From positions 1 through 64,000 of IMG/VR virus record IMGVR_UViG_3300047483_000537: 64,000 nt of DNA. One strand, 5' to 3'. Origin of the DNA: a virus. Positions 5,728 to 30,645 of this stretch are shown here, one piece after another. A program made the position numbers and the translations under genes. The notes under the pieces are model-generated. The model saw only the letters and a program-made list of their open reading frames with translations, was not told the DNA's origin and did no database searches. Within the stretch, counting starts at the first letter, position 1; every line of letters begins with the position of its first letter.

Positions 5728-5781
5728 TAATGTTTTAGCGGCAAGAACAACAGTTCACCGACTAGTTCTAGAAAAATGAAC

Positions 5782-5810
5782 TTGTTCTTGCTGTCTATTT
5801 TTGATATAAT
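5782..5810 (+). promoter_or_regulatory. Sigma70-type promoter for the Y-RNA/Ro60 unit
   Basis: (AC)TTGTTC-N17-TATAAT. Confidence 0.75.
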
Positions 5811-5812
5811 AT

Positions 5813-6010
5813 ATACTTAAATTAAAGAGCTTAGTGTAGTGATTAGATTTCAGGTACTTCATAACTAAAGTACTCGTTAAATTCGTTAAATTCGCAACAT
5901 TCAGCAGGTCTTCGTTGCTCCTGCCTAAGTTTAAGGTAAGCGTTCTTTGATAAGTAAACGCTTCCAGCCCTGAGCTAGAGTGTTCTCTCTAGGTTCTTTA
6001 ATTTAGGTAT
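5813..6010 (+). ncRNA. Y-RNA-like element 1 within a 22-bp stem
   Basis: 5813-5834 pairs with 5989-6010 (3 G-U); inner AGTGAT..CAGGTACTTC ... CTGAGCTAGAGTGTTCT resembles the other elements. Confidence 0.55.
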
Positions 6011-6136
6011 AGTGAAAGAAACAGTTACTTCAATTGATAATGACGTGGTCGGTGGTTCGAGTCCACCCCAAGGCGCAAGCCAAAGTAGCTCAGTTGGTAG
6101 AGCACGAAAATCTCTGTTTCGCCTAGTTCTTACTTA
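6004..6136 (+). ncRNA. YrlA-like Y RNA (element 2) with permuted tRNA-like domain
   Basis: AGTGAAAG-GAAACAG/CTGTTTC stem; T-arm GGTGG-TTCGAGT-CCACC, GGC-GCAA-GCC, then D-arm TAGCTCAGTTGGTAGAGC; directly upstream of Ro60. Confidence 0.85.
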
Positions 6137-6151
6137 TTAAAAAGGAATCAA

Positions 6152-7462
6152 ATGTCTTCGATCAATCGCGTTGTGCGTAACCCTGTTTTCAATTCTGTTG
6201 GTACGCAAGTATCGCAAATTAGTGCAGAACGCCAGCTAAAGCGCGTAACCATGGCAGCAATGTTGTGGGAAAACCAGTTCTATATGGACGGCAAAACTCA
6301 CGCTGAGTTGGTCAAAGACCTTGTAGCTAAAGTCGCTCCTGAAAAGGTATCGGCTCTGGCTGAGGAAGCTCGTACTAAGTTTAAACTTCGTCACATTCCT
6401 CTGTTGCTTGCCCGCGAGTTAGCTCGAAACGGAAAACTGCAAGCACAAACCCTAACCAATGTTATTCAGCGTCCAGACGAAATGTCTGAATTTTTGAGTA
6501 TCTATTGGAAGGAAGGCAAAACTGCTGTCTCAAACCAAGTTAAAAAAGGCTTAGCGGCTTGTTTTAATAAGTTTTCAGAATACCAGCTTGCCAAATGGAA
6601 TAAGAATTCATCCGCAATTCGTTTGCGCGATGTAATGTTTATCTCCCACCCTAAACCGCAAAATGCCGAGCAAACAGCGTTGTTTCAACGCATTGCGGCT
6701 GATACACTTGAGACTCCTGACACATGGGAAACTCAATTATCTAGCGGCGCAGATAAGTGTGGTACGTTCTCCAGACTAATGTTGGAGAAAAAGCTAGGCG
6801 CTCTAGCTTTCTTGCGTAATCTGCGTAATATGCGCGACAGTGGTGTAGCGGATTCCCTTATCCGCAGTTATGCACAAACTGTTGACGTTAGTCGTGTCCT
6901 GCCTTTCCGCTATATTGCGGCGGCACGTATTGTTCCACAATACGAGGATATGCTAGAACAAATGATGTTCCGTAGCCTTGCTCAACATCAAAAAATTCCT
7001 GGAAAGACTGTTCTGTTGATCGACGTAAGTGGCTCAATGTTCGGTACCAGAATTTCCTCAAAATCAGATCTAGATCGCTTCGATGCGGCAGCTGCACTTG
7101 CTATGCTGTGCCGTGAAGTTTGTGAGGAAGTCGAGATTTATAGCTTTAGCAATAATGCTGTGCGCGTTGCACCTCGTCGTGGATTTGCTCTCCGCGAAGC
7201 TATTTCAAGCTCTCAAAGTCACGGTGGAACTGCTCTTGGCAATTCCATGAAGACTGTAGACAGCAACAGTTTGTACGACCGTTGTATTGTGTTTACTGAC
7301 GAGCAAAGCTATGATCGCCCAGGTGCTCCTCGTAACAAAGGCTACATTATCAATGTGGCTAGCTACGAAAATGGGGTTAACCACCAAGCATGGACTGAGA
7401 TTAATGGTTTCTCAGAGTCTGTAATTGATTACATCCAAGCGTTGGAGCAGGAAGCTGCTTAA
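6152..7462 (+). CDS. rsr: Ro60/Rsr-like TROVE-domain RNA-binding protein with vWA domain
   Basis: QRPDEM, FSEYQLAKW, LRDVMFISHPKP, TWETQLS, LRNLRN, SRVLPFRY; MIDAS DVSGSM and FTDEQ. Confidence 0.93.
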   Translation: MSSINRVVRNPVFNSVGTQVSQISAERQLKRVTMAAMLWENQFYMDGKTHAELVKDLVAKVAPEKVSALAEEARTKFKLRHIPLLLARELARNGKLQAQTLTNVIQRPDEMSEFLSIYWKEGKTAVSNQVKKGLAACFNKFSEYQLAKWNKNSSAIRLRDVMFISHPKPQNAEQTALFQRIAADTLETPDTWETQLSSGADKCGTFSRLMLEKKLGALAFLRNLRNMRDSGVADSLIRSYAQTVDVSRVLPFRYIAAARIVPQYEDMLEQMMFRSLAQHQKIPGKTVLLIDVSGSMFGTRISSKSDLDRFDAAAALAMLCREVCEEVEIYSFSNNAVRVAPRRGFALREAISSSQSHGGTALGNSMKTVDSNSLYDRCIVFTDEQSYDRPGAPRNKGYIINVASYENGVNHQAWTEINGFSESVIDYIQALEQEAA

Positions 7463-7524
7463 ATAACTATCTCACGACCCAAGCCTGTAGCCAGTCAGGT
7501 GTTAGAAAAGTGAGGCTCTAAGCT

Positions 7525-7623
7525 AAGGGCTTAGATTTGTTGATGGTGATAGAAACAGTTACTTCTTCTTATGGTGAAACTAACGAGCTGTTTCGACTTA
7601 TTCCTCAGCAAATCTAAGCCCTT
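7525..7623 (+). ncRNA. Minimal Y-RNA-like element 3
   Basis: GGTGATAGAAACAGTTACTTC...CTGTTTCGACTTATTCC closed by 19-bp stem AAGGGCTTAGATTTGTTGA/TCAGCAAATCTAAGCCCTT. Confidence 0.75.
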
Positions 7624-7691
7624 TGCGCTTTTATCGGTTACTTCTAGACTTTTAATCTAACCAAATCGCCGATAATACTTATTCAAGGGCT
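7617..7691 (+). ncRNA. Minimal Y-RNA-like element 4 with Lys(UUU)-like anticodon hairpin
   Basis: TTATCGG-TTACTTC...CCGATAA-TACTTATTC, compensatory stem changes; TAGA-CTTTTAA-TCTA inside. Confidence 0.7.
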
Positions 7692-7700
7692 GCTACTTAT

Positions 7701-7827
7701 TGCTTTGGCGATAGTTACAGTTTCATCAAAAGTTCGATTCTTTTATTACGCATCGCGTTATTAGCCTAGTGGTAAGGCACCGGAACTGATAATCCGGCAA
7801 AAACTCTGTAATGACTTATTCCAAGCA
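7701..7827 (+). ncRNA. YrlA-like Y RNA (element 5) with T, acceptor-like, D and anticodon arms in permuted order
   Basis: GGCGATAG-TTACAG/CTGTAA-TGACTTATTCC; AAAAG-TTCGATT-CTTTT; TAGCCTAGTGGTAAGGC; CCGGA-ACTGATAA-TCCGG. Confidence 0.8.
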
Positions 7828-7830
7828 TTT

Positions 7831-8554: not shown

Positions 8555-9022
8555 ATGCACGAATTTAATTTACAAGAAGTCAAGGATTTTATTTCAGCAC
8601 AATCACCAGAAACTAAAATTTATCTTGGTGCTGATTCGGAGCGTGTAAAAGTTCATGGTGTATGGCACGCTGACTATACTCTAGCAGTTGTTGTTCATAT
8701 TGACGGCAATCATGGTTGCAAGATTTTTGGGTCGGTTAGTCGTGAACGCGACTTTGATCAAAAAGTATCAAAACCAGCATTGCGGCTAATGCAAGAAGTT
8801 TATAAAGTAAGTGATCTATTTCACGAATTATCGGATGTTTTACAAGATCGTCACGTTGAAGTTCACCTAGATATTAACCCTAACCTAATGTACGGCTCTA
8901 GCTGTGTTGTACAACAGGCTATCGGGTATATCAAAGGTACTTGCAATGTAGATGCTCAAGTAAAACCAAATGCTTTTGCAGCAAGCTATGCTGCTGATCG
9001 TTTAAAATTTATATTGGCTTAA
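8555..9022 (+). CDS. RNase H-like YkuK-family protein
   Basis: IYLGADS, RLMQEV..S, EVHLDIN, KP.AFAASYAAD pattern. Confidence 0.8.
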   Translation: MHEFNLQEVKDFISAQSPETKIYLGADSERVKVHGVWHADYTLAVVVHIDGNHGCKIFGSVSRERDFDQKVSKPALRLMQEVYKVSDLFHELSDVLQDRHVEVHLDINPNLMYGSSCVVQQAIGYIKGTCNVDAQVKPNAFAASYAADRLKFILA

Positions 9023-9382: not shown

Positions 9383-9490
9383 TATTATAACACATTACTC
9401 GCCACTTAATGCATAAATGCGGAGTCGTCGCGCGCATACCTTCCGCGGGTAATCAGGAGCACCTGACATGGGTAGTGTGTTATAATATGG
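9380..9490 (+). ncRNA. Unassigned RNA: 21-bp stem closing a GC-rich multibranch core
   Basis: 9380-9400 pairs with 9470-9490 (2 G-U); inner TCAGG/CCTGA, GCAT/ATGC hairpins. Confidence 0.55.
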
Positions 9491-9810
9491 TTGTATGAAG
9501 CAAAAAGAAAAGAGTTCTGGACGGCGGTTCGAATCCGCCCAGCTCCACCATAAGCACGTGTCTTAGATGAAAGAAACCTCTGAGGGCTCTAATGGGGCGT
9601 GCTTTTGATGGGGCTGCATTTGGTTTCGACAGGGTTACAAGTAAACGAGTGGACAACTAGGTAATGCAGAAGCCTTAGGATTGGGGTTGTTCCCAGTCGC
9701 AGAAGCACAACAAAAATAAACGCAAACGATCAAGTTTACGCTTTAGCAGCTTAATTGCCGCTTAGGGTTTTGTCAGTTTTTCCTCGTAACAGAATAAAGC
9801 TGACCCTAAT
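9491..9810 (+). ncRNA. ssrA: Circularly permuted (two-piece) tmRNA
   Basis: 3' TLD half GGACGGCGGTTCGAATCCGCCCAGCTCCACCA (ends 9550) precedes 5' half GGGGCTG..GGTTTCGAC (9610); G3-U70; tag 9722-9754 ANDQVYALAA*; outer ends approximate. Confidence 0.92.
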
Positions 9811-9825
9811 TTATTTAAGAAACTT

Positions 9826-10413
9826 ATGAAGAAAACAAACATTCTAGACCCTAAACTGTTTCAAACAGAAAAGTATTCAAATAACTTTTCTAAACCGGTA
9901 GCACAAGTTCATGAGTTTTATTTAAGTGGTCAAATTGAAGATGCTGATGAATACATTGAATGGTTTGATGTTATCAGGAACGCTTCTAGCACAGATACTA
10001 TTCGTATTTATATTAACAGTCCAGGTGGCGACCTATTTACCACACTACAGTTTTTGCGAGTTATGTCGGATACCGAAGCTACCATTGTTACCAGTGTTGA
10101 AGGCGCTTGCATGAGTGCTGCTACTATGATCTTTTTACATGGTCATATGCAAGAAGTAACACCACATAGCTTATTTATGTTTCATGACTATTCGTCAGGC
10201 ACATTTGGCAAAGGTGGCGAACAGTACGATCAAATTCAGTTTGAGCGTGGCTGGTCTCGAAAGTTTATGAAAGAAGTCTACAAAGACTTTTTAACTGAAG
10301 CTGAGATTGAGTCGATGATGCACAACAAAGACATTTGGATGGATTCAGATGAAGTTGTTAAGCGTCTTACTAACCTAATGGAAAAGCGCAAAACTGAAAA
10401 TCCAGAAGAATAA
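9826..10413 (+). CDS. clpP: ClpP-like protease subunit
   Basis: IYINSPGG, GACMSAAT (catalytic Ser), SLFMFHD (His), DIWMD. Confidence 0.85.
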   Translation: MKKTNILDPKLFQTEKYSNNFSKPVAQVHEFYLSGQIEDADEYIEWFDVIRNASSTDTIRIYINSPGGDLFTTLQFLRVMSDTEATIVTSVEGACMSAATMIFLHGHMQEVTPHSLFMFHDYSSGTFGKGGEQYDQIQFERGWSRKFMKEVYKDFLTEAEIESMMHNKDIWMDSDEVVKRLTNLMEKRKTENPEE

Positions 10414-28838: not shown

Positions 28839-30645
28839 CGCATTTAGTTACGGCTCAGACAACAAAATTGACTTTACTAATGCTCCGCTAACTCAACTTG
28901 TTGGCAAAAATGGACATGGAAAAAGTTCTATTGCTCTAGTGTTAGAAGAAGTTTTATTTAACAAGAACTCTAAGTCTATTAAAAAGGCAGACATTCTTAA
29001 CCGATATGTTAAAGATAAGGCTTATAGCATTAACCTAGTATTCGAGCGAGACGGTATAGAGTACACTATTGATACAAAGCGTGGTAGTACTCAAACTGTT
29101 AAACTTTACAAAAATGGTAATGATATTAGTGCCCATACTGCCACACAAACTTACAAAATAATTGAAGAAGTCCTAGGCTTTGATCATAAAACCTTTTCGC
29201 AGATTGTGTACCAAAGCAATGCTAGTAGTCTAGAGTTTTTAACGGCGCCTGATACTGCTCGTAAGAAGTTTCTTATTGAGATTTTAGATCTAGGTAGATA
29301 TACTCAGGCGCAGGAAGTTTTCAAAGAAACTGCTCAAGAGCTTGGCAAAGATATTACCACAGTACAGTCCCAGGTCAACACAGTAACAGCCTGGTTAGAC
29401 AAATACGAAAAAATGGATCTAACTCCGCAAGTTTTGCAGTCAGTAATTGCTGTAGATGCAGAGCAATTGGTAGAGCTAGATAAACTGGACAGCTCGATTA
29501 AAAACATCGAGACCACAAATAAAAAGATCACACAAAATAACACTTACAAGCAATTACAAGCTAAAATTAAACTATTTCCTATTCCTGAGAAACCAACTGA
29601 GGATACAAAGCCATTAGTATCCGAAGCAGGTAAGCTAAATACAGAATCAGTTGAGCTATCTAAAACTATTCGAGATTCACAAGCATTTGTTAAAAAGATT
29701 GGTGCTTTGCACGGAACGTGCCCAACTTGTTTGCAAGATATTGATGAAGCTAAAATTAGCGAATTGATTGAAGAACAGCAAAAGATTCAAGAGACCGCCA
29801 GTATTAGTAGTGCTAGAATTGCTGCTAGAATAAGTGAAATTGACGCTATACGTGCAGATATTACAAAACGTATGCAAGCCTGGGAGTCTGCTAGTAAATC
29901 GATGGAAGAGTGGGAAAAGTATCACTCACTGATTGACACAGATATTCAAGAAGACTTACTAGATAAAAATGAACTAGAGTCTAAGTTTATTGGGCTGCAA
30001 AAAGCAATAGCAACTCTAAAAGATACTATTGCCAGAGCTGAAAAACATAACCTAGCTGCCAGTGCTCATAATGCAAAAATCGATACTATTTCAAAGCAGA
30101 TAGTAGACATGAATGAAGAGTTGGAAACATACAGTGGTAAGCTGCATGAACTCTCAGAGCGAATGAGTATTATTAATGTTCTAACAAAGACATTTTCTAC
30201 TACTGGATTAGTGGCTTATAAGATTGAGTGTTTAGTAAAAGACTTAGAAGAAATAACAAATAAATATCTTGTAGATTTGAGTGACGGTAGATTTCAAATA
30301 TCGTTCAAGGTATCTACTAGCGATAAACTTAATGTCATTATTACTGATAATGGTAAGGATATCGAAATGTTGGCATTAAGTGGTGGCGAGCGTGCTAGAG
30401 TTAACGTAGCTACACTACTTGCAATTCGTAAGTTAATGCAAACTTTAAGTGCATCTAGAATTAACTTACTGATTCTAGACGAGACTGTAGAAGCTCTGGA
30501 CGTGGACGGAAAAGAGCGATTAATCGAAGTCTTATTAAAAGAAGAGCATCTGAATACGTTTCTAGTGTCTCACGGCTTTAGCCACCCACTACTTGAAAAA
30601 GTCAATGTAGTGAAAAACAATAATATATCTCAGATTGAATCATGA
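28807..30645 (+). CDS. SbcC/Rad50-like ATPase (T5 D13-like)
   Basis: GKNGHGKS, CPTC zinc hook, LSGGE, LILDE, SH. Confidence 0.92.
   Translation: MITIKTLAWSNAFSYGSDNKIDFTNAPLTQLVGKNGHGKSSIALVLEEVLFNKNSKSIKKADILNRYVKDKAYSINLVFERDGIEYTIDTKRGSTQTVKLYKNGNDISAHTATQTYKIIEEVLGFDHKTFSQIVYQSNASSLEFLTAPDTARKKFLIEILDLGRYTQAQEVFKETAQELGKDITTVQSQVNTVTAWLDKYEKMDLTPQVLQSVIAVDAEQLVELDKLDSSIKNIETTNKKITQNNTYKQLQAKIKLFPIPEKPTEDTKPLVSEAGKLNTESVELSKTIRDSQAFVKKIGALHGTCPTCLQDIDEAKISELIEEQQKIQETASISSARIAARISEIDAIRADITKRMQAWESASKSMEEWEKYHSLIDTDIQEDLLDKNELESKFIGLQKAIATLKDTIARAEKHNLAASAHNAKIDTISKQIVDMNEELETYSGKLHELSERMSIINVLTKTFSTTGLVAYKIECLVKDLEEITNKYLVDLSDGRFQISFKVSTSDKLNVIITDNGKDIEMLALSGGERARVNVATLLAIRKLMQTLSASRINLLILDETVEALDVDGKERLIEVLLKEEHLNTFLVSHGFSHPLLEKVNVVKNNNISQIES

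What the first reader, a model, noticed from the sequence alone, without database searches (positions are those of the whole stretch)
5938..7797. Y RNAs display Ile(GAU) and Lys(UUU) anticodon loops: possible decoys for anticodon nucleases
Seen: TTGATAA in hairpin 5938-5963; TCA-ATTGATAA-TGA at 6030-6043, followed by tRNA-Ile-like GGTCGGTGGTTCGAGTCCAC; CCGGA-ACTGATAA-TCCGG at 7780-7797; TAGA-CTTTTAA-TCTA at 7645-7659. Two Ile loops are 8 nt, not 7. No intact Ile(GAU) or Lys(UUU) tRNA is in this window, though the cluster may extend upstream. Established: PrrC and PARIS AriB cleave tRNA-Lys(UUU). Inference: non-chargeable anticodon mimics held on Ro60 may titrate or tether tRNA-targeting defence nucleases or t6A/synthetase machinery.
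Basis: partly seen in the sequence, partly recalled or inferred. Interest (0 to 1): 0.82.

Follow-up and report, generated by a model that had tools for sequence, protein, structure and literature searches.

The report
Anticodon-arm mimics in phage Y RNAs
The small RNAs flanking this phage's Ro60 gene are tRNA look-alikes that keep a real anticodon arm: its frame (U33, U36-A37-A38) is conserved while the "anticodon" changes freely between relatives, which published descriptions of these Y RNAs do not mention and which narrows the search for what they bind.

Summary
Three of the four hairpins are real, conserved anticodon-arm mimics. They belong to Y-RNA modules beside a phage Ro60 gene (6152-7462). 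The fourth (5938-5963) is a conserved hairpin with a 12-nt loop; its UUGAUAA is incidental.

- **Conservation.** In 36 viral modules the stems covary. C32, U33 and U36-A37-A38 are kept. Positions 34-35 vary at about the neutral rate. So "Ile" and "Lys" are not conserved identities; the mimic is of the class of tRNAs that read ANN codons and carry t6A37.
- **Module 1 (YrlA-like, 6002-6135).** The hairpin is the published "V" stem-loop. Its 3' strand runs on into two pairs formed with the bases just after the D arm. All 34 RNAs tested, from phages and bacteria, keep these pairs with compensatory changes. The result is a 5-bp anticodon stem with the Ro60-docking helix branching from it.
- **Module 4 (7710-7815).** This is a second, differently permuted, complete tRNA mimic. 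Its anticodon loop is irregular in relatives.
- **Phage versus bacteria.** Bacterial relatives show many anticodon classes (UAA in 14/41). Viral ones strongly favour UAA (29/36).
- **Function.** The decoy idea fits published PrrC and AriB determinants but is untested.

This scan noted the same feature on other DNA (e1-5802954).

The parts
5938..5963 (+). Upstream hairpin: 7-bp stem with a 12-nt loop that contains UUGAUAA. Not an anticodon mimic.
   Evidence: Sequence. The stem is kept in relatives but the loop is not.
6002..6135 (+). Module 1: a YrlA-like Y RNA that is a complete tRNA mimic with a closed acceptor.
   Evidence: Rfam YrlA gives 30.8 bits, E 4e-4, below the gathering score of 69. 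Homologous RNAs lie beside Ro60 in 17 viral loci. The structure is supported by covariation.
6018..6024 (+). 5' strand (GAAACAG) of the presumed Ro60-docking helix. It pairs with CUGUUUC at 6114-6120. GUGAAAG just upstream (6012-6018) resembles the published GNCGAA(N)G motif.
   Evidence: The same helix recurs in module 2 (7552-7558 with 7588-7594) and in relatives.
6025..6031 (+). UUACUUC, which contains the conserved YUAY motif of YrlA RNAs.
   Evidence: Columns 2, 4, 6 and 7 are invariant in the 34-sequence alignment A3. The YUAY motif is described in PMC4201824.
6030..6043 (+). Anticodon-arm hairpin of module 1 (positions 29-41): UCA, 8-nt loop AUUGAUAA, UGA.
   Evidence: Relatives carry 7-nt loops at this place: CUUCUAA, CUGUUAA, CUUGUAA, AUGCUAA, CUGCUAA, CUGAUAA. 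Their stems covary.
6044..6045 (+). Positions 42-43 (CG). They pair with CG at 6105-6106 just after the D arm and complete a 5-bp chimeric anticodon stem.
   Evidence: Paired in 34/34 sequences: AU 12, GC 12, CG 10 at one pair; GC 32, AU 2 at the other.
6051..6067 (+). T arm of module 1: GGUGG-UUCGAGU-CCACC.
   Evidence: stem 100% paired, four pairs with compensatory changes.
6068..6085 (+). Acceptor-like stem closed by a GCAA loop. No free 3' end and no CCA.
   Evidence: The outer pairs covary in A3.
6088..6106 (+). D arm (GCUC-AGUUGGUA-GAGC), A26, and the CG (27'-28') that pairs with 6044-6045.
6152..7462 (+). Ro60 (Rsr) homologue, 436 aa, with TROVE and vWA domains.
   Evidence: Pfam TROVE, vWA_Ro60. 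Full-length match to Thermus phage phiLo Ro60, PDB 9L5Y/9KOP, E 2.5e-22.
7525..7623 (+). Module 2: Y-RNA-like, with a 15-bp outer stem and the same GAAACAG/CUGUUUC helix. Its cargo hairpin is not anticodon-like.
7631..7675 (+). Module 3: mini Y-like RNA. It has the stem UUAUCGG/CCGAUAA and UUACUUC, and carries only an anticodon-type hairpin.
7645..7659 (+). Anticodon-type hairpin of module 3: UAGA, loop CUUUUAA, UCUA.
   Evidence: The same stem carries the loops CUCUUAA, CUGCUAA, CAGCUAA, CUUGUAA, CUUCUAA, CUACUAA and CUUUAAA in relatives.
7710..7815 (+). Module 4: a circularly permuted complete tRNA mimic. In order: UUACAG/CUGUAA stem, T arm 7728-7744, closed acceptor 7745-7761, D arm 7764-7778, anticodon arm.
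   Evidence: The Rfam tRNA model gives 23.6 bits (gathering score 29) on 7755-7818. Homologues are listed.
7780..7797 (+). Anticodon arm of module 4: CCGGA, 8-nt loop ACUGAUAA, UCCGG.
   Evidence: The stem is conserved. In relatives the loop is irregular, 7-9 nt: AGCAUAU, UCUUAAAC, UGUUAAAC, CUAAUAC, UGCAUAA.

Best explanation
The loops are the anticodon arms of tRNA-mimicking Y RNAs of the YrlA kind, encoded around a phage Ro60 gene.

**Shown**
- In module 1, the hairpin that the literature calls the 'V' stem-loop supplies positions 29-41 of a tRNA.
- Its 3' strand continues into two pairs made with the bases that follow the D arm. The RNA therefore has a 5-bp anticodon stem, a variable loop, a T arm, a loop-closed acceptor and a D arm.
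- The docking helix, which carries the RNA's two ends, branches from the anticodon stem between positions 28 and 29.
- Module 3 carries the same hairpin alone on a similar helix.
- Module 4 is a second permutation, with its ends in the variable-loop region.
- In this phage clade, selection keeps the loop frame (C32, U33, U36-A37-A38, usually U39). Positions 34-35 change at about the neutral rate. What is mimicked is the class of ANN-decoding, t6A37-bearing tRNAs, not tRNA-Ile or tRNA-Lys.

**Inferred**
- The helix docks on Ro60.
- The RNAs cannot be charged or decode.
- The arm is held out to a host protein that reads the U36-A37-A38 frame and ignores 34-35.
- I think the most likely effect is competitive binding (bait or decoy) of anticodon-loop nucleases of host defence. 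PARIS AriB (shared U36-A-A-U39) and PrrC (needs t6A37) are the known examples. The RNA would probably first be made tRNA-like by host modification enzymes, including the t6A synthase TsaBD.
For: **Family and setting**
- Ro60 identity.
- A sub-threshold YrlA match covers module 1.
- The same modules flank Ro60 in 17 viral loci with 50-96% protein identity.

**Structure**
- On 34 RNAs from phages and bacteria, 95.3% of cells pair, against 76.3% in shuffles. The covariation score is 0.473 against 0.117, and no slid version exceeds 51% paired.
- The distal 2-bp helix pairs in 34/34 with AU 12, GC 12 and CG 10.
- Pair 31:39 reads CG 15, AU 7, UA 4.

**Loop frame**
- Among 46 unique viral modules with a 7-nt loop after the motif, 26 end in UAA. 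Of these, 25 have C32, 24 have U33 and 23 have U39.
- They sit on nine different stems and show 11 different anticodons.

**Rate at positions 34-35**
- Fourfold-site divergence between these phages is 0.11-0.58.
- Positions 34-35 show 2-4 states, at the upper end of fourfold sites.
- Module 3 of L002 and L004 differs from the window only at positions 33-35.

**Breadth**
- The same arm occurs in Xanthomonas phage Tabio, Caulobacter phage CcrColossus, Brevundimonas phage Kikimora and Gordonia phage VanLee.
- ARAGORN even calls tRNAs on three of them.

**Phage bias**
- UAA occurs in 29/36 viral modules against 14/41 from bacterial genomes, Fisher p 7e-5.
- U39 occurs in 26/30 against 5/14.

**Literature**
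- Bacterial TsaBD needs 36-UAA-38 plus the D-stem shape, holds 34 and 35 in non-specific pockets, and does not touch the acceptor or T arm (PMC13276492).
- AriB's targets share U36AAU, and PrrC needs t6A (PMC12409363).
- YrlA is already known to be modified by TruB and DusA (PMC4201824).
- YrlA has been proposed as a competitive inhibitor of an anticodon nuclease (PMC7790460).
Against: - There is no RNA, binding or cleavage evidence of any kind.
- The host and its defence systems are unknown.
- Known anticodon nucleases also read anticodon identity or distal tRNA features. For AriB, restoring the site in T5 tRNA-Lys did not restore cleavage (PMC12409363). A free 34-35 fits a frame reader such as TsaBD better than it fits a specific nuclease.
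- Variation at 34-35 is not clearly above neutral, so an arms race is not demonstrated.
- In bacterial relatives the same hairpin carries non-ANN frames such as CAC, GGA and AAC. A t6A-linked role therefore cannot be general to the family.
- The phage-versus-bacteria counts are not corrected for shared descent.
- Both 'Ile' loops in the window have 8 nt, and module 4 loops are irregular in relatives.
- Module 3 has no D stem, and only full-length tRNAs are reported as t6A substrates (PMC13276492).
- No RNA-repair genes (RtcB, Rnl2) were found in the genome. The Rnl1 search was uninformative.
Confidence: 0.45

Rival explanations
1. Modification mimicry without a defence role. The U36-A37-A38 frame is kept because the RNA must be handled by host tRNA enzymes, with t6A added by TsaBD and perhaps others. 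This would let it fold, be stable, or be recognised by the still unknown YrlA effector, which binds elsewhere (the elbow). Alternatively, the RNA tethers or titrates the t6A synthase itself.
For: - The conserved set (36-UAA-38 with 34-35 free, plus a D stem in tRNA geometry in modules 1 and 4) is the determinant set reported for bacterial TsaBD (PMC13276492).
- YrlA is a substrate of TruB and DusA (PMC4201824).
- Wang et al. expect the effector to bind the conserved elbow (10.1101/312249).
Against: - Module 3 and other mini-modules keep the frame without any D stem or tRNA body.
- Bacterial relatives do well with non-UAA frames.
- This reading does not explain the phage-specific bias towards UAA and U39.
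Confidence: 0.25
2. Relic with a structural role only. The hairpin is the leftover anticodon arm of the tRNA, or tRNA dimer, from which YrlA arose. It is kept as a helical arm of the three-way junction, and the loop frame persists only because a U-turn loop is a stable cap.
For: - The dimeric-tRNA origin model of Sim and Wolin predicts leftover anticodon arms on either side (10.1101/312249). Modules 1 and 4 have the arm on the 5' and the 3' side respectively.
- Positions 34-35 evolve near neutrally.
- Module 4 loops are irregular in length.
- Many YrlA paralogues lack the hairpin altogether.
Against: - U36, A37 and A38 are kept across nine unrelated stem sequences, and across phages of Proteobacteria and Actinobacteria. 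Neighbouring fourfold sites are up to 58% diverged. A mere cap would not need these three bases.
- Mini-modules consist of little else than this hairpin.
Confidence: 0.2
3. One reading: decoys that imitate tRNA-Ile(GAU) and tRNA-Lys(UUU) in particular, aimed at nucleases or synthetases that read those anticodons.
For: - The loops read GAU (twice) and UUU in this genome.
- The 8-nt AUUGAUAA loop recurs in L008, and ACUGAUAA recurs in L003.
- CUUUUAA recurs in L006, L154 and L170.
- PrrC and AriB target tRNA-Lys(UUU) (PMC12409363).
Against: - Relatives with 90-96% identical Ro60 show other anticodons on the same stems.
- Ser-type loops (GCU) are common, although seryl-tRNA synthetase does not read the anticodon (from memory).
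- The first 'Ile' hairpin is not an anticodon loop at all.
Confidence: 0.06
4. They are working, permuted or split tRNAs that are processed and charged.
For: - The same genome holds a circularly permuted tmRNA.
- ARAGORN calls tRNAs on homologues in other phages.
- M. smegmatis YrlA is cut by RNase P and accepted by the CCA-adding enzyme (PMC4201824).
Against: - The acceptor is closed by a 3-4-nt loop with no discriminator base or CCA, whereas this phage's true tRNAs encode CCA.
- The acceptor stem of module 1 has three mismatches.
- Two loops have 8 nt.
- tRNA models score below threshold, and ARAGORN finds nothing there.
Confidence: 0.03

Closest known systems
YrlA (Y RNA-like A; Rfam RF02553; Chen et al. 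2014, PMC4201824; structure in Wang et al. 2018, 10.1101/312249)
   Same: - Encoded next to Ro60 on the same strand.
- T arm, loop-closed acceptor and D arm in that order.
- YUAY motif.
- RNA ends in a long helix.
- A stem-loop ('V') upstream of the T arm is mentioned as present in many members.
   Different: - The literature treats that stem-loop as a poorly conserved variable arm and states that YrlA 'lacks the anticodon loop'.
- Here it has anticodon-arm geometry (7-nt loop, C32, U33). It also completes a 5-bp stem with the bases after the D arm.
- The window's copy scores only 30.8 bits against the model (gathering score 69).
- The published GNCGAA(N)G motif is replaced by GUGA(A/U)AG.
Deinococcus radiodurans Yrn1
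   Same: Chen et al. model it with a possible 'anticodon arm' that has a 5-bp stem.
   Different: - That loop has 6 nt.
- The D arm is incomplete.
- The arm lies between the T and D elements.
- No conserved anticodon-loop frame was reported.
Phage tRNAs that neutralise tRNA-targeting defence (T5 tRNA-Lys against PARIS; PMC11464382, PMC12409363)
   Same: - Phage-encoded.
- Located in or beside tRNA clusters.
- Concern the same tRNA class (Lys, Thr, Asn; U36-A-A-U39).
[quoted passage not shown]
   Different: - Those are chargeable tRNAs that replace the cleaved ones and escape cleavage through changes at positions 39 and 41.
- These RNAs cannot be charged, mostly keep U39, and sit on a Ro60 scaffold.
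Thermus phage phiLo Ro60 with Yrl1/Yrl2 (PMC12135203)
   Same: A phage Ro60, the closest solved structure to this protein, with two Y-like RNAs encoded upstream. It forms a complex with host PNPase.
   Different: No tRNA-like or anticodon-like element is described for Yrl1 or Yrl2.
tRNA-shaped 'inside-out' Y RNAs noted earlier by this scan (for example e1-5642982), seen here in crAss001 (L198:3588-3731)
   Same: Ro60-linked tRNA mimics that carry the UUACUUC motif.
   Different: They have an open acceptor in normal order, and the docking module takes the place of the anticodon loop. Here the acceptor is closed and the anticodon loop is kept.

Membership tests
YrlA-type Y RNA | Encoded within 4 kb of a Ro60 gene on the same strand | tested here: met
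   Modules lie 20-360 nt from the Ro60 ORF on the + strand. The same holds in 17 viral and many bacterial loci.
YrlA-type Y RNA | T arm, loop-closed acceptor-like stem and D arm in that order, with tRNA-like conserved bases | tested here: met
   Module 1. Module 4.
YrlA-type Y RNA | Score at or above the Rfam RF02553 gathering threshold (69 bits) | tested here: not met
   30.8 bits, E 4e-4. Other phage copies score 31-52 bits.
YrlA-type Y RNA | Conserved YUAY before the stem-loop that precedes the T arm | tested here: met
   UUAC at 6025-6028, 7559-7562, 7638-7641 and 7715-7718. Nearly invariant in A3.
YrlA-type Y RNA | GNCGAA(N)G motif near the 5' end (presumed Ro60 contact) | tested here: not met
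   GUGAAAG (6012-6018) and GUGAUAG (7546-7552) stand at the equivalent place. Bacterial relatives have GGUGAAGA. These are similar to the motif but do not match it.
YrlA-type Y RNA | Binds Ro60/Rsr | not testable with these tools
   No RNA-protein tool was available and no RNA data.
Functional tRNA | Open 7-bp acceptor stem with discriminator base and 3' CCA | tested here: not met
   The acceptor is closed by GCAA (module 1) or AUC (module 4), with no CCA. The phage's true tRNAs encode CCA.
Functional tRNA | Detected by tRNA finders or models | tested here: not met
   ARAGORN finds nothing at 5900-7830. The Rfam tRNA model gives 23.6 bits (gathering score 29) on module 4 only.
Substrate class of the t6A37 synthase (ANN-decoding tRNAs) | 36-UAA-38 in a 7-nt anticodon loop | tested here: met
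   Module 3 has CUUUUAA. Modules 1 and 4 have UAA in 8-nt loops. 26 of 46 unique viral 7-nt loops end in UAA; these are 26 of the 32 that are anticodon-like.
Substrate class of the t6A37 synthase (ANN-decoding tRNAs) | D stem stacked on the anticodon stem in a full tRNA body | tested here: inconclusive
   The secondary structure of modules 1 and 4 allows it, but 3D geometry at the three-way junction is unknown. Module 3 has no D stem.
Substrate class of the t6A37 synthase (ANN-decoding tRNAs) | A37 actually carries t6A | not testable with these tools
   Needs mass spectrometry or primer extension.
Decoy or inhibitor of an anticodon nuclease | Carries the sequence read by a known nuclease (AriB: U36-A-A-U39 and the site at 40/41) | tested here: met
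   UAAUGA in module 1, UAAUCU in module 3, UAAUCC in module 4. U39 occurs in 23/26 viral UAA loops. The motif is taken from PMC12409363. AriB also needs distal features that were not examined.
Decoy or inhibitor of an anticodon nuclease | Binds the nuclease, or protects tRNA or the phage | not testable with these tools
   The host and its defence genes are unknown, and no assay was possible.

The most novel reading that the evidence does not exclude
Phage Ro60 particles are an anti-defence device. Each Y RNA holds out an uncleavable or sacrificial anticodon arm of the t6A class, which soaks up PARIS-, PrrC- or RloC-like anticodon nucleases. The free 'anticodon' positions are retuned, phage by phage, to the nuclease specificities of the local hosts. 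The same principle, with other loop frames, would explain the long-unknown effector of bacterial YrlA.
Probability: 0.2. Interest if true: 0.88.

Novelty: new variant of a known kind. Interest (0 to 1): 0.62.

Why it matters
The partner of the tRNA-like domain of bacterial and phage Y RNAs has been unknown since 2014.

If many of these RNAs carry a true anticodon arm with a selected frame, the candidate partners narrow to proteins that read anticodon loops: modification enzymes and anticodon nucleases. Loop point mutants then become an obvious experiment.

It flags a practical problem as well. tRNA finders annotate some of these Y RNAs as tRNA-Arg, tRNA-Ser or tRNA-Asn in published phage genomes.

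If the decoy reading holds, it would be a new kind of phage counter-defence against the growing list of tRNA-cleaving immune systems.

Tried and rejected
- **'T-arm-less tRNA fragment' for 7755-7818.** This was my first reading, from the Rfam tRNA alignment. I dropped it when relatives showed a T arm and a closed acceptor directly upstream.
- **Local 5-bp hairpin using the UU of UUACUUC.** This is possible in some sequences. In the window it fails (U opposite C), while the distal pairing holds in 34/34.
- **Hypervariability as proof of an arms race.** Positions 34-35 are at the upper end of, but not clearly beyond, fourfold-degenerate sites, so I do not claim diversifying selection.
- **Avoidance of UAAU in the phage's own ANN-class tRNAs.** No consistent pattern: Asn and Ser keep UAAU, while Lys, Thr and Met do not.
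- **RNA-repair partners.** RtcB and Rnl2 were not found. The Rnl1 search was uninformative because its controls did not ring.
- **Promoter and terminator scan.** Nothing above chance.
- **An automatic loop parse on bacterial loci.** It mis-registered some hairpins, so I replaced it with a stricter parse.
- **The 15-mer scan of viral contigs.** It gave mostly chance matches. I used those only as a negative control.
- **Supplementary alignments of Chen et al. 2014.** They are not held.
Full report
**Setting**

The window is the first 64 kb of a 96.6-kb, single-contig virus record. It carries 22 tRNA genes and a permuted tmRNA.

The ORF at 6152-7462 is a Ro60/Rsr homologue. It has TROVE and Ro60-type vWA domains and a full-length match to the solved Ro60 of Thermus phage phiLo (E 2.5e-22). 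Ro60 homologues occur in 95 phage records. The non-coding stretches on both sides of the gene, 5780-6150 and 7463-7830, hold the finding.

**Checking the observation**

All four motifs stand where stated.

- Hairpin 5938-5963 has a perfect 7-bp stem but a 12-nt loop. The stem recurs in relatives. The UUGAUAA word does not: it is already altered in the closest relative.
- The other three are hairpins with 3-5 bp stems and 7- or 8-nt loops.
- Taken alone they prove little. Shuffled versions of the window give about 14 hairpins per strand with a YUNNUAA loop and at least 3 bp.
The rest of the genome holds tRNA-Lys(UUU) and no Ile(GAU).

**What the RNAs are**

Rfam's YrlA model aligns to 6021-6133 at 30.8 bits, below its threshold of 69. 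That alignment includes a T arm followed by a D arm, which is the YrlA signature.

I fetched 17 viral loci through the Ro60 protein (50-96% identity). More came from DNA-pattern scans of viral and metagenome contigs. The same set of modules flanks Ro60 in these loci.

Each module has a closing helix, then the motif UUACUUC, then a 'cargo'. UUACUUC contains the YUAY motif that Chen et al. 2014 reported for YrlA. In the window:

- Module 1 (6002-6135) carries an anticodon-type hairpin plus T arm, closed acceptor and D arm.
- Module 2 (7525-7623) carries an unrelated hairpin.
- Module 3 (7631-7675) carries only an anticodon-type hairpin.
- Module 4 (7710-7815) carries T arm, closed acceptor, D arm and then an anticodon arm.

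My first reading of module 4 as a T-arm-less tRNA fragment was wrong.

**Structure of module 1**

The hairpin after UUACUUC is the stem-loop that Chen et al. called 'V' and read as a variable arm. Wang et al. 2018 state that YrlA lacks the anticodon loop.

In a 34-sequence alignment of such RNAs from phages and from Acidobacteriota, Alphaproteobacteria and other genomes, I counted the following:

- The two bases after the hairpin's 3' strand pair with the two bases that follow the D arm and position 26. They pair in 34 of 34 sequences, with AU 12, GC 12 and CG 10 at one pair and GC 32, AU 2 at the other.
- The loop-closing pair reads CG 15, AU 7, UA 4.
- The whole structure is 95.3% paired, against 76.3% in shuffles and at most 51% when the partners are slid.

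In the window, three hairpin pairs plus two distal pairs give a 5-bp anticodon stem. A 5-nt variable loop ending in C follows, then the T arm. This is the geometry of a tRNA. The helix that holds both RNA ends branches from the 5' strand of the anticodon stem.

Position 26 and position 44 also change together (A with U, or G with A).

Module 4 is the other permutation: its ends lie where the variable loop would be. Both arrangements are what the tRNA-dimer origin model cited by Wang et al. would leave behind.

**The loops**

I looked at unique viral modules that have a 7-nt loop right after the motif.

- 26 of 46 end in U-A-A.
- Of those 26, 25 begin with C, 24 have U at the second place, and 23 are followed by U.
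- They sit on nine different stem sequences and show 11 different middle triplets: GUU, GCU, CUU, UCU, UGU, UUU, GAU, AUU, UAU, ACU and CAU.
- The remaining 20 are other cargo types (the module 2 hairpin, T loops) or near variants.

Module 3 of L002 and L004 is identical to the window's except at loop positions 33-35. Module 1 of L003, L147 and L150 shares one stem and differs only at position 35: GUU, GAU, GCU.

So the loop frame is conserved and the 'anticodon' is not. The window's Ile and Lys readings are incidental.

The fourfold-degenerate sites of Ro60 differ by 0.11-0.58 between these phages. Positions 34-35 show two to four states, at the upper end of what fourfold sites show. That means they are free or mildly diversifying. 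I cannot say more.

The 8-nt loop of module 1 is shared with L008, and that of module 4 with L003, so the extra base is tolerated. Module 4 loops are irregular in relatives, at 7-9 nt, and look least constrained.

**Breadth**

The same arm, with the same frame, occurs in the YrlA-like RNAs of four further phages:

- Xanthomonas phage Tabio and Caulobacter phage CcrColossus (CUGUUAA)
- Brevundimonas phage Kikimora (CUGCUAA)
- Gordonia phage VanLee (CUUCUAA)

ARAGORN calls tRNA-Asn, tRNA-Ser and tRNA-Arg on three of these. GenBank annotates two as tRNAs.

In bacterial genomes, 41 of 73 YrlA-type RNAs have the arm (C32 in 33, U33 in 31). Only 14 of those end in UAA. Others end in CAC, GGA, AAC and so on, with anticodons of many classes.

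The viral bias to UAA is 29/36 against 14/41, Fisher p 7e-5. The bias to U39 is 26/30 against 5/14, p 0.001. Both are suggestive. Both treat related sequences as independent.

**How it may work**

*Shown:*
- the fold
- the conserved frame
- the closed acceptor without CCA
- the link to Ro60

*Inferred from the family:*
- The closing helix and the GUGA(A/U)AG element dock on Ro60.
- phiLo Ro60 binds two phage Y-like RNAs and host PNPase (PMC12135203).

The conserved set (U36-A37-A38 with 34-35 free, plus a D stem in tRNA position) is the determinant set reported for the bacterial t6A synthase TsaBD. That enzyme does not touch the acceptor or T arm (PMC13276492). The same frame is read by defence nucleases. 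AriB's major and minor targets share U36-A-A-U39, and PrrC needs t6A37 (PMC12409363). Hughes et al. proposed YrlA as a competitive inhibitor of an anticodon nuclease.

I therefore rank the readings as follows:

1. Bait or decoy for anticodon-loop nucleases, probably after host modification. This includes the shown structural part, and I give it 0.45 overall.
2. Modification mimicry without a defence role, 0.25.
3. A structural relic, 0.2.

The Ile/Lys-specific version and a decoding role are unlikely. The main weaknesses are these:

- There are no RNA or binding data.
- The host is unknown.
- Bacterial relatives use other frames.
- Free 34-35 positions fit a frame reader better than a specific nuclease.

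**Novelty**

Phage Ro60 genes, YrlA RNAs and the 'V' stem-loop are published. In the papers I could search, I found none that identifies that stem-loop as an anticodon arm, describes the distal pairing, or reports a conserved t6A-class frame.

This scan reached the same idea on another phage (e1-5802954) and on a giant-virus RNA (e1-5536715). I saw those notes after my own analysis, and they are not independent evidence.

Noticed in passing
L146:1311-1385; L202:1551-1622; L143:1258-1328: ARAGORN calls tRNA-Ser(gct), tRNA-Arg(tct) and tRNA-Asn(gtt) on what are YrlA-like Y RNAs next to Ro60 in phages Kikimora, VanLee and Tabio. The first two are annotated as tRNAs in GenBank. In VanLee the acceptor 5' strand UGGUCG occurs twice, as a tRNA-dimer origin would leave it.
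   Followed up: partly
window 9458-9845 and 9826-10413: A circularly permuted (two-piece type) tmRNA with tag ANDQVYALAA, directly followed by a ClpP-like protease gene.
   Followed up: no
genome 96007-96098 (outside the window): A 92-nt tRNA called Ile(UAU), with an A-C mismatch in the anticodon stem, the loop UUUAUAU and a long unstructured variable region. It may be another non-standard tRNA-like RNA.
   Followed up: no
L002, L004, L006 upstream of Ro60 (compare window 6012-6120): Module 1 is cleanly absent in three close relatives while its flanks are kept, so the modules are gained and lost as cassettes.
   Followed up: partly
L003, L005, L007, L010, L011, L017, at the place of window 7645-7668: In these relatives the anticodon-type hairpin of module 3 is replaced by a roughly 45-nt cargo that looks pseudoknotted (CUCC ... 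GGGAG).
   Followed up: no
L002:4858, L004:5826, L007:5394, L011:6317, L175:4225, L151 (- strand): A further module type about 1.5 kb downstream of Ro60: AAAUCAG-UUACUUC, then a 5-6 bp A/U stem with the loop CUGUUAA, CUCUUAA or CUGUGAA, then a T arm. It is absent from the window.
   Followed up: partly
L198:3588-3731 (Bacteroides phage crAss001): A tRNA in normal order with an open acceptor, whose anticodon region is replaced by about 70 nt ending in AGUUACUUC. This is the 'inside-out' Y RNA design this scan has noted elsewhere.
   Followed up: no
window 5890-5935: GCAAC...GUUGC overlaps GCAGG...CCUGC, a possible pseudoknot just upstream of hairpin 5938-5963. GGUACUUC at about 5865 suggests a fifth, degenerate module.
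   Followed up: no
window 30338-30362 (+): A 6-bp hairpin with the exact Ile-type loop CUGAUAA, far from the RNA cluster. It is probably chance, given the background rate.
   Followed up: no
window 8555-9022: An RNase H-like (PF04308) ORF embedded in the tRNA cluster.
   Followed up: no
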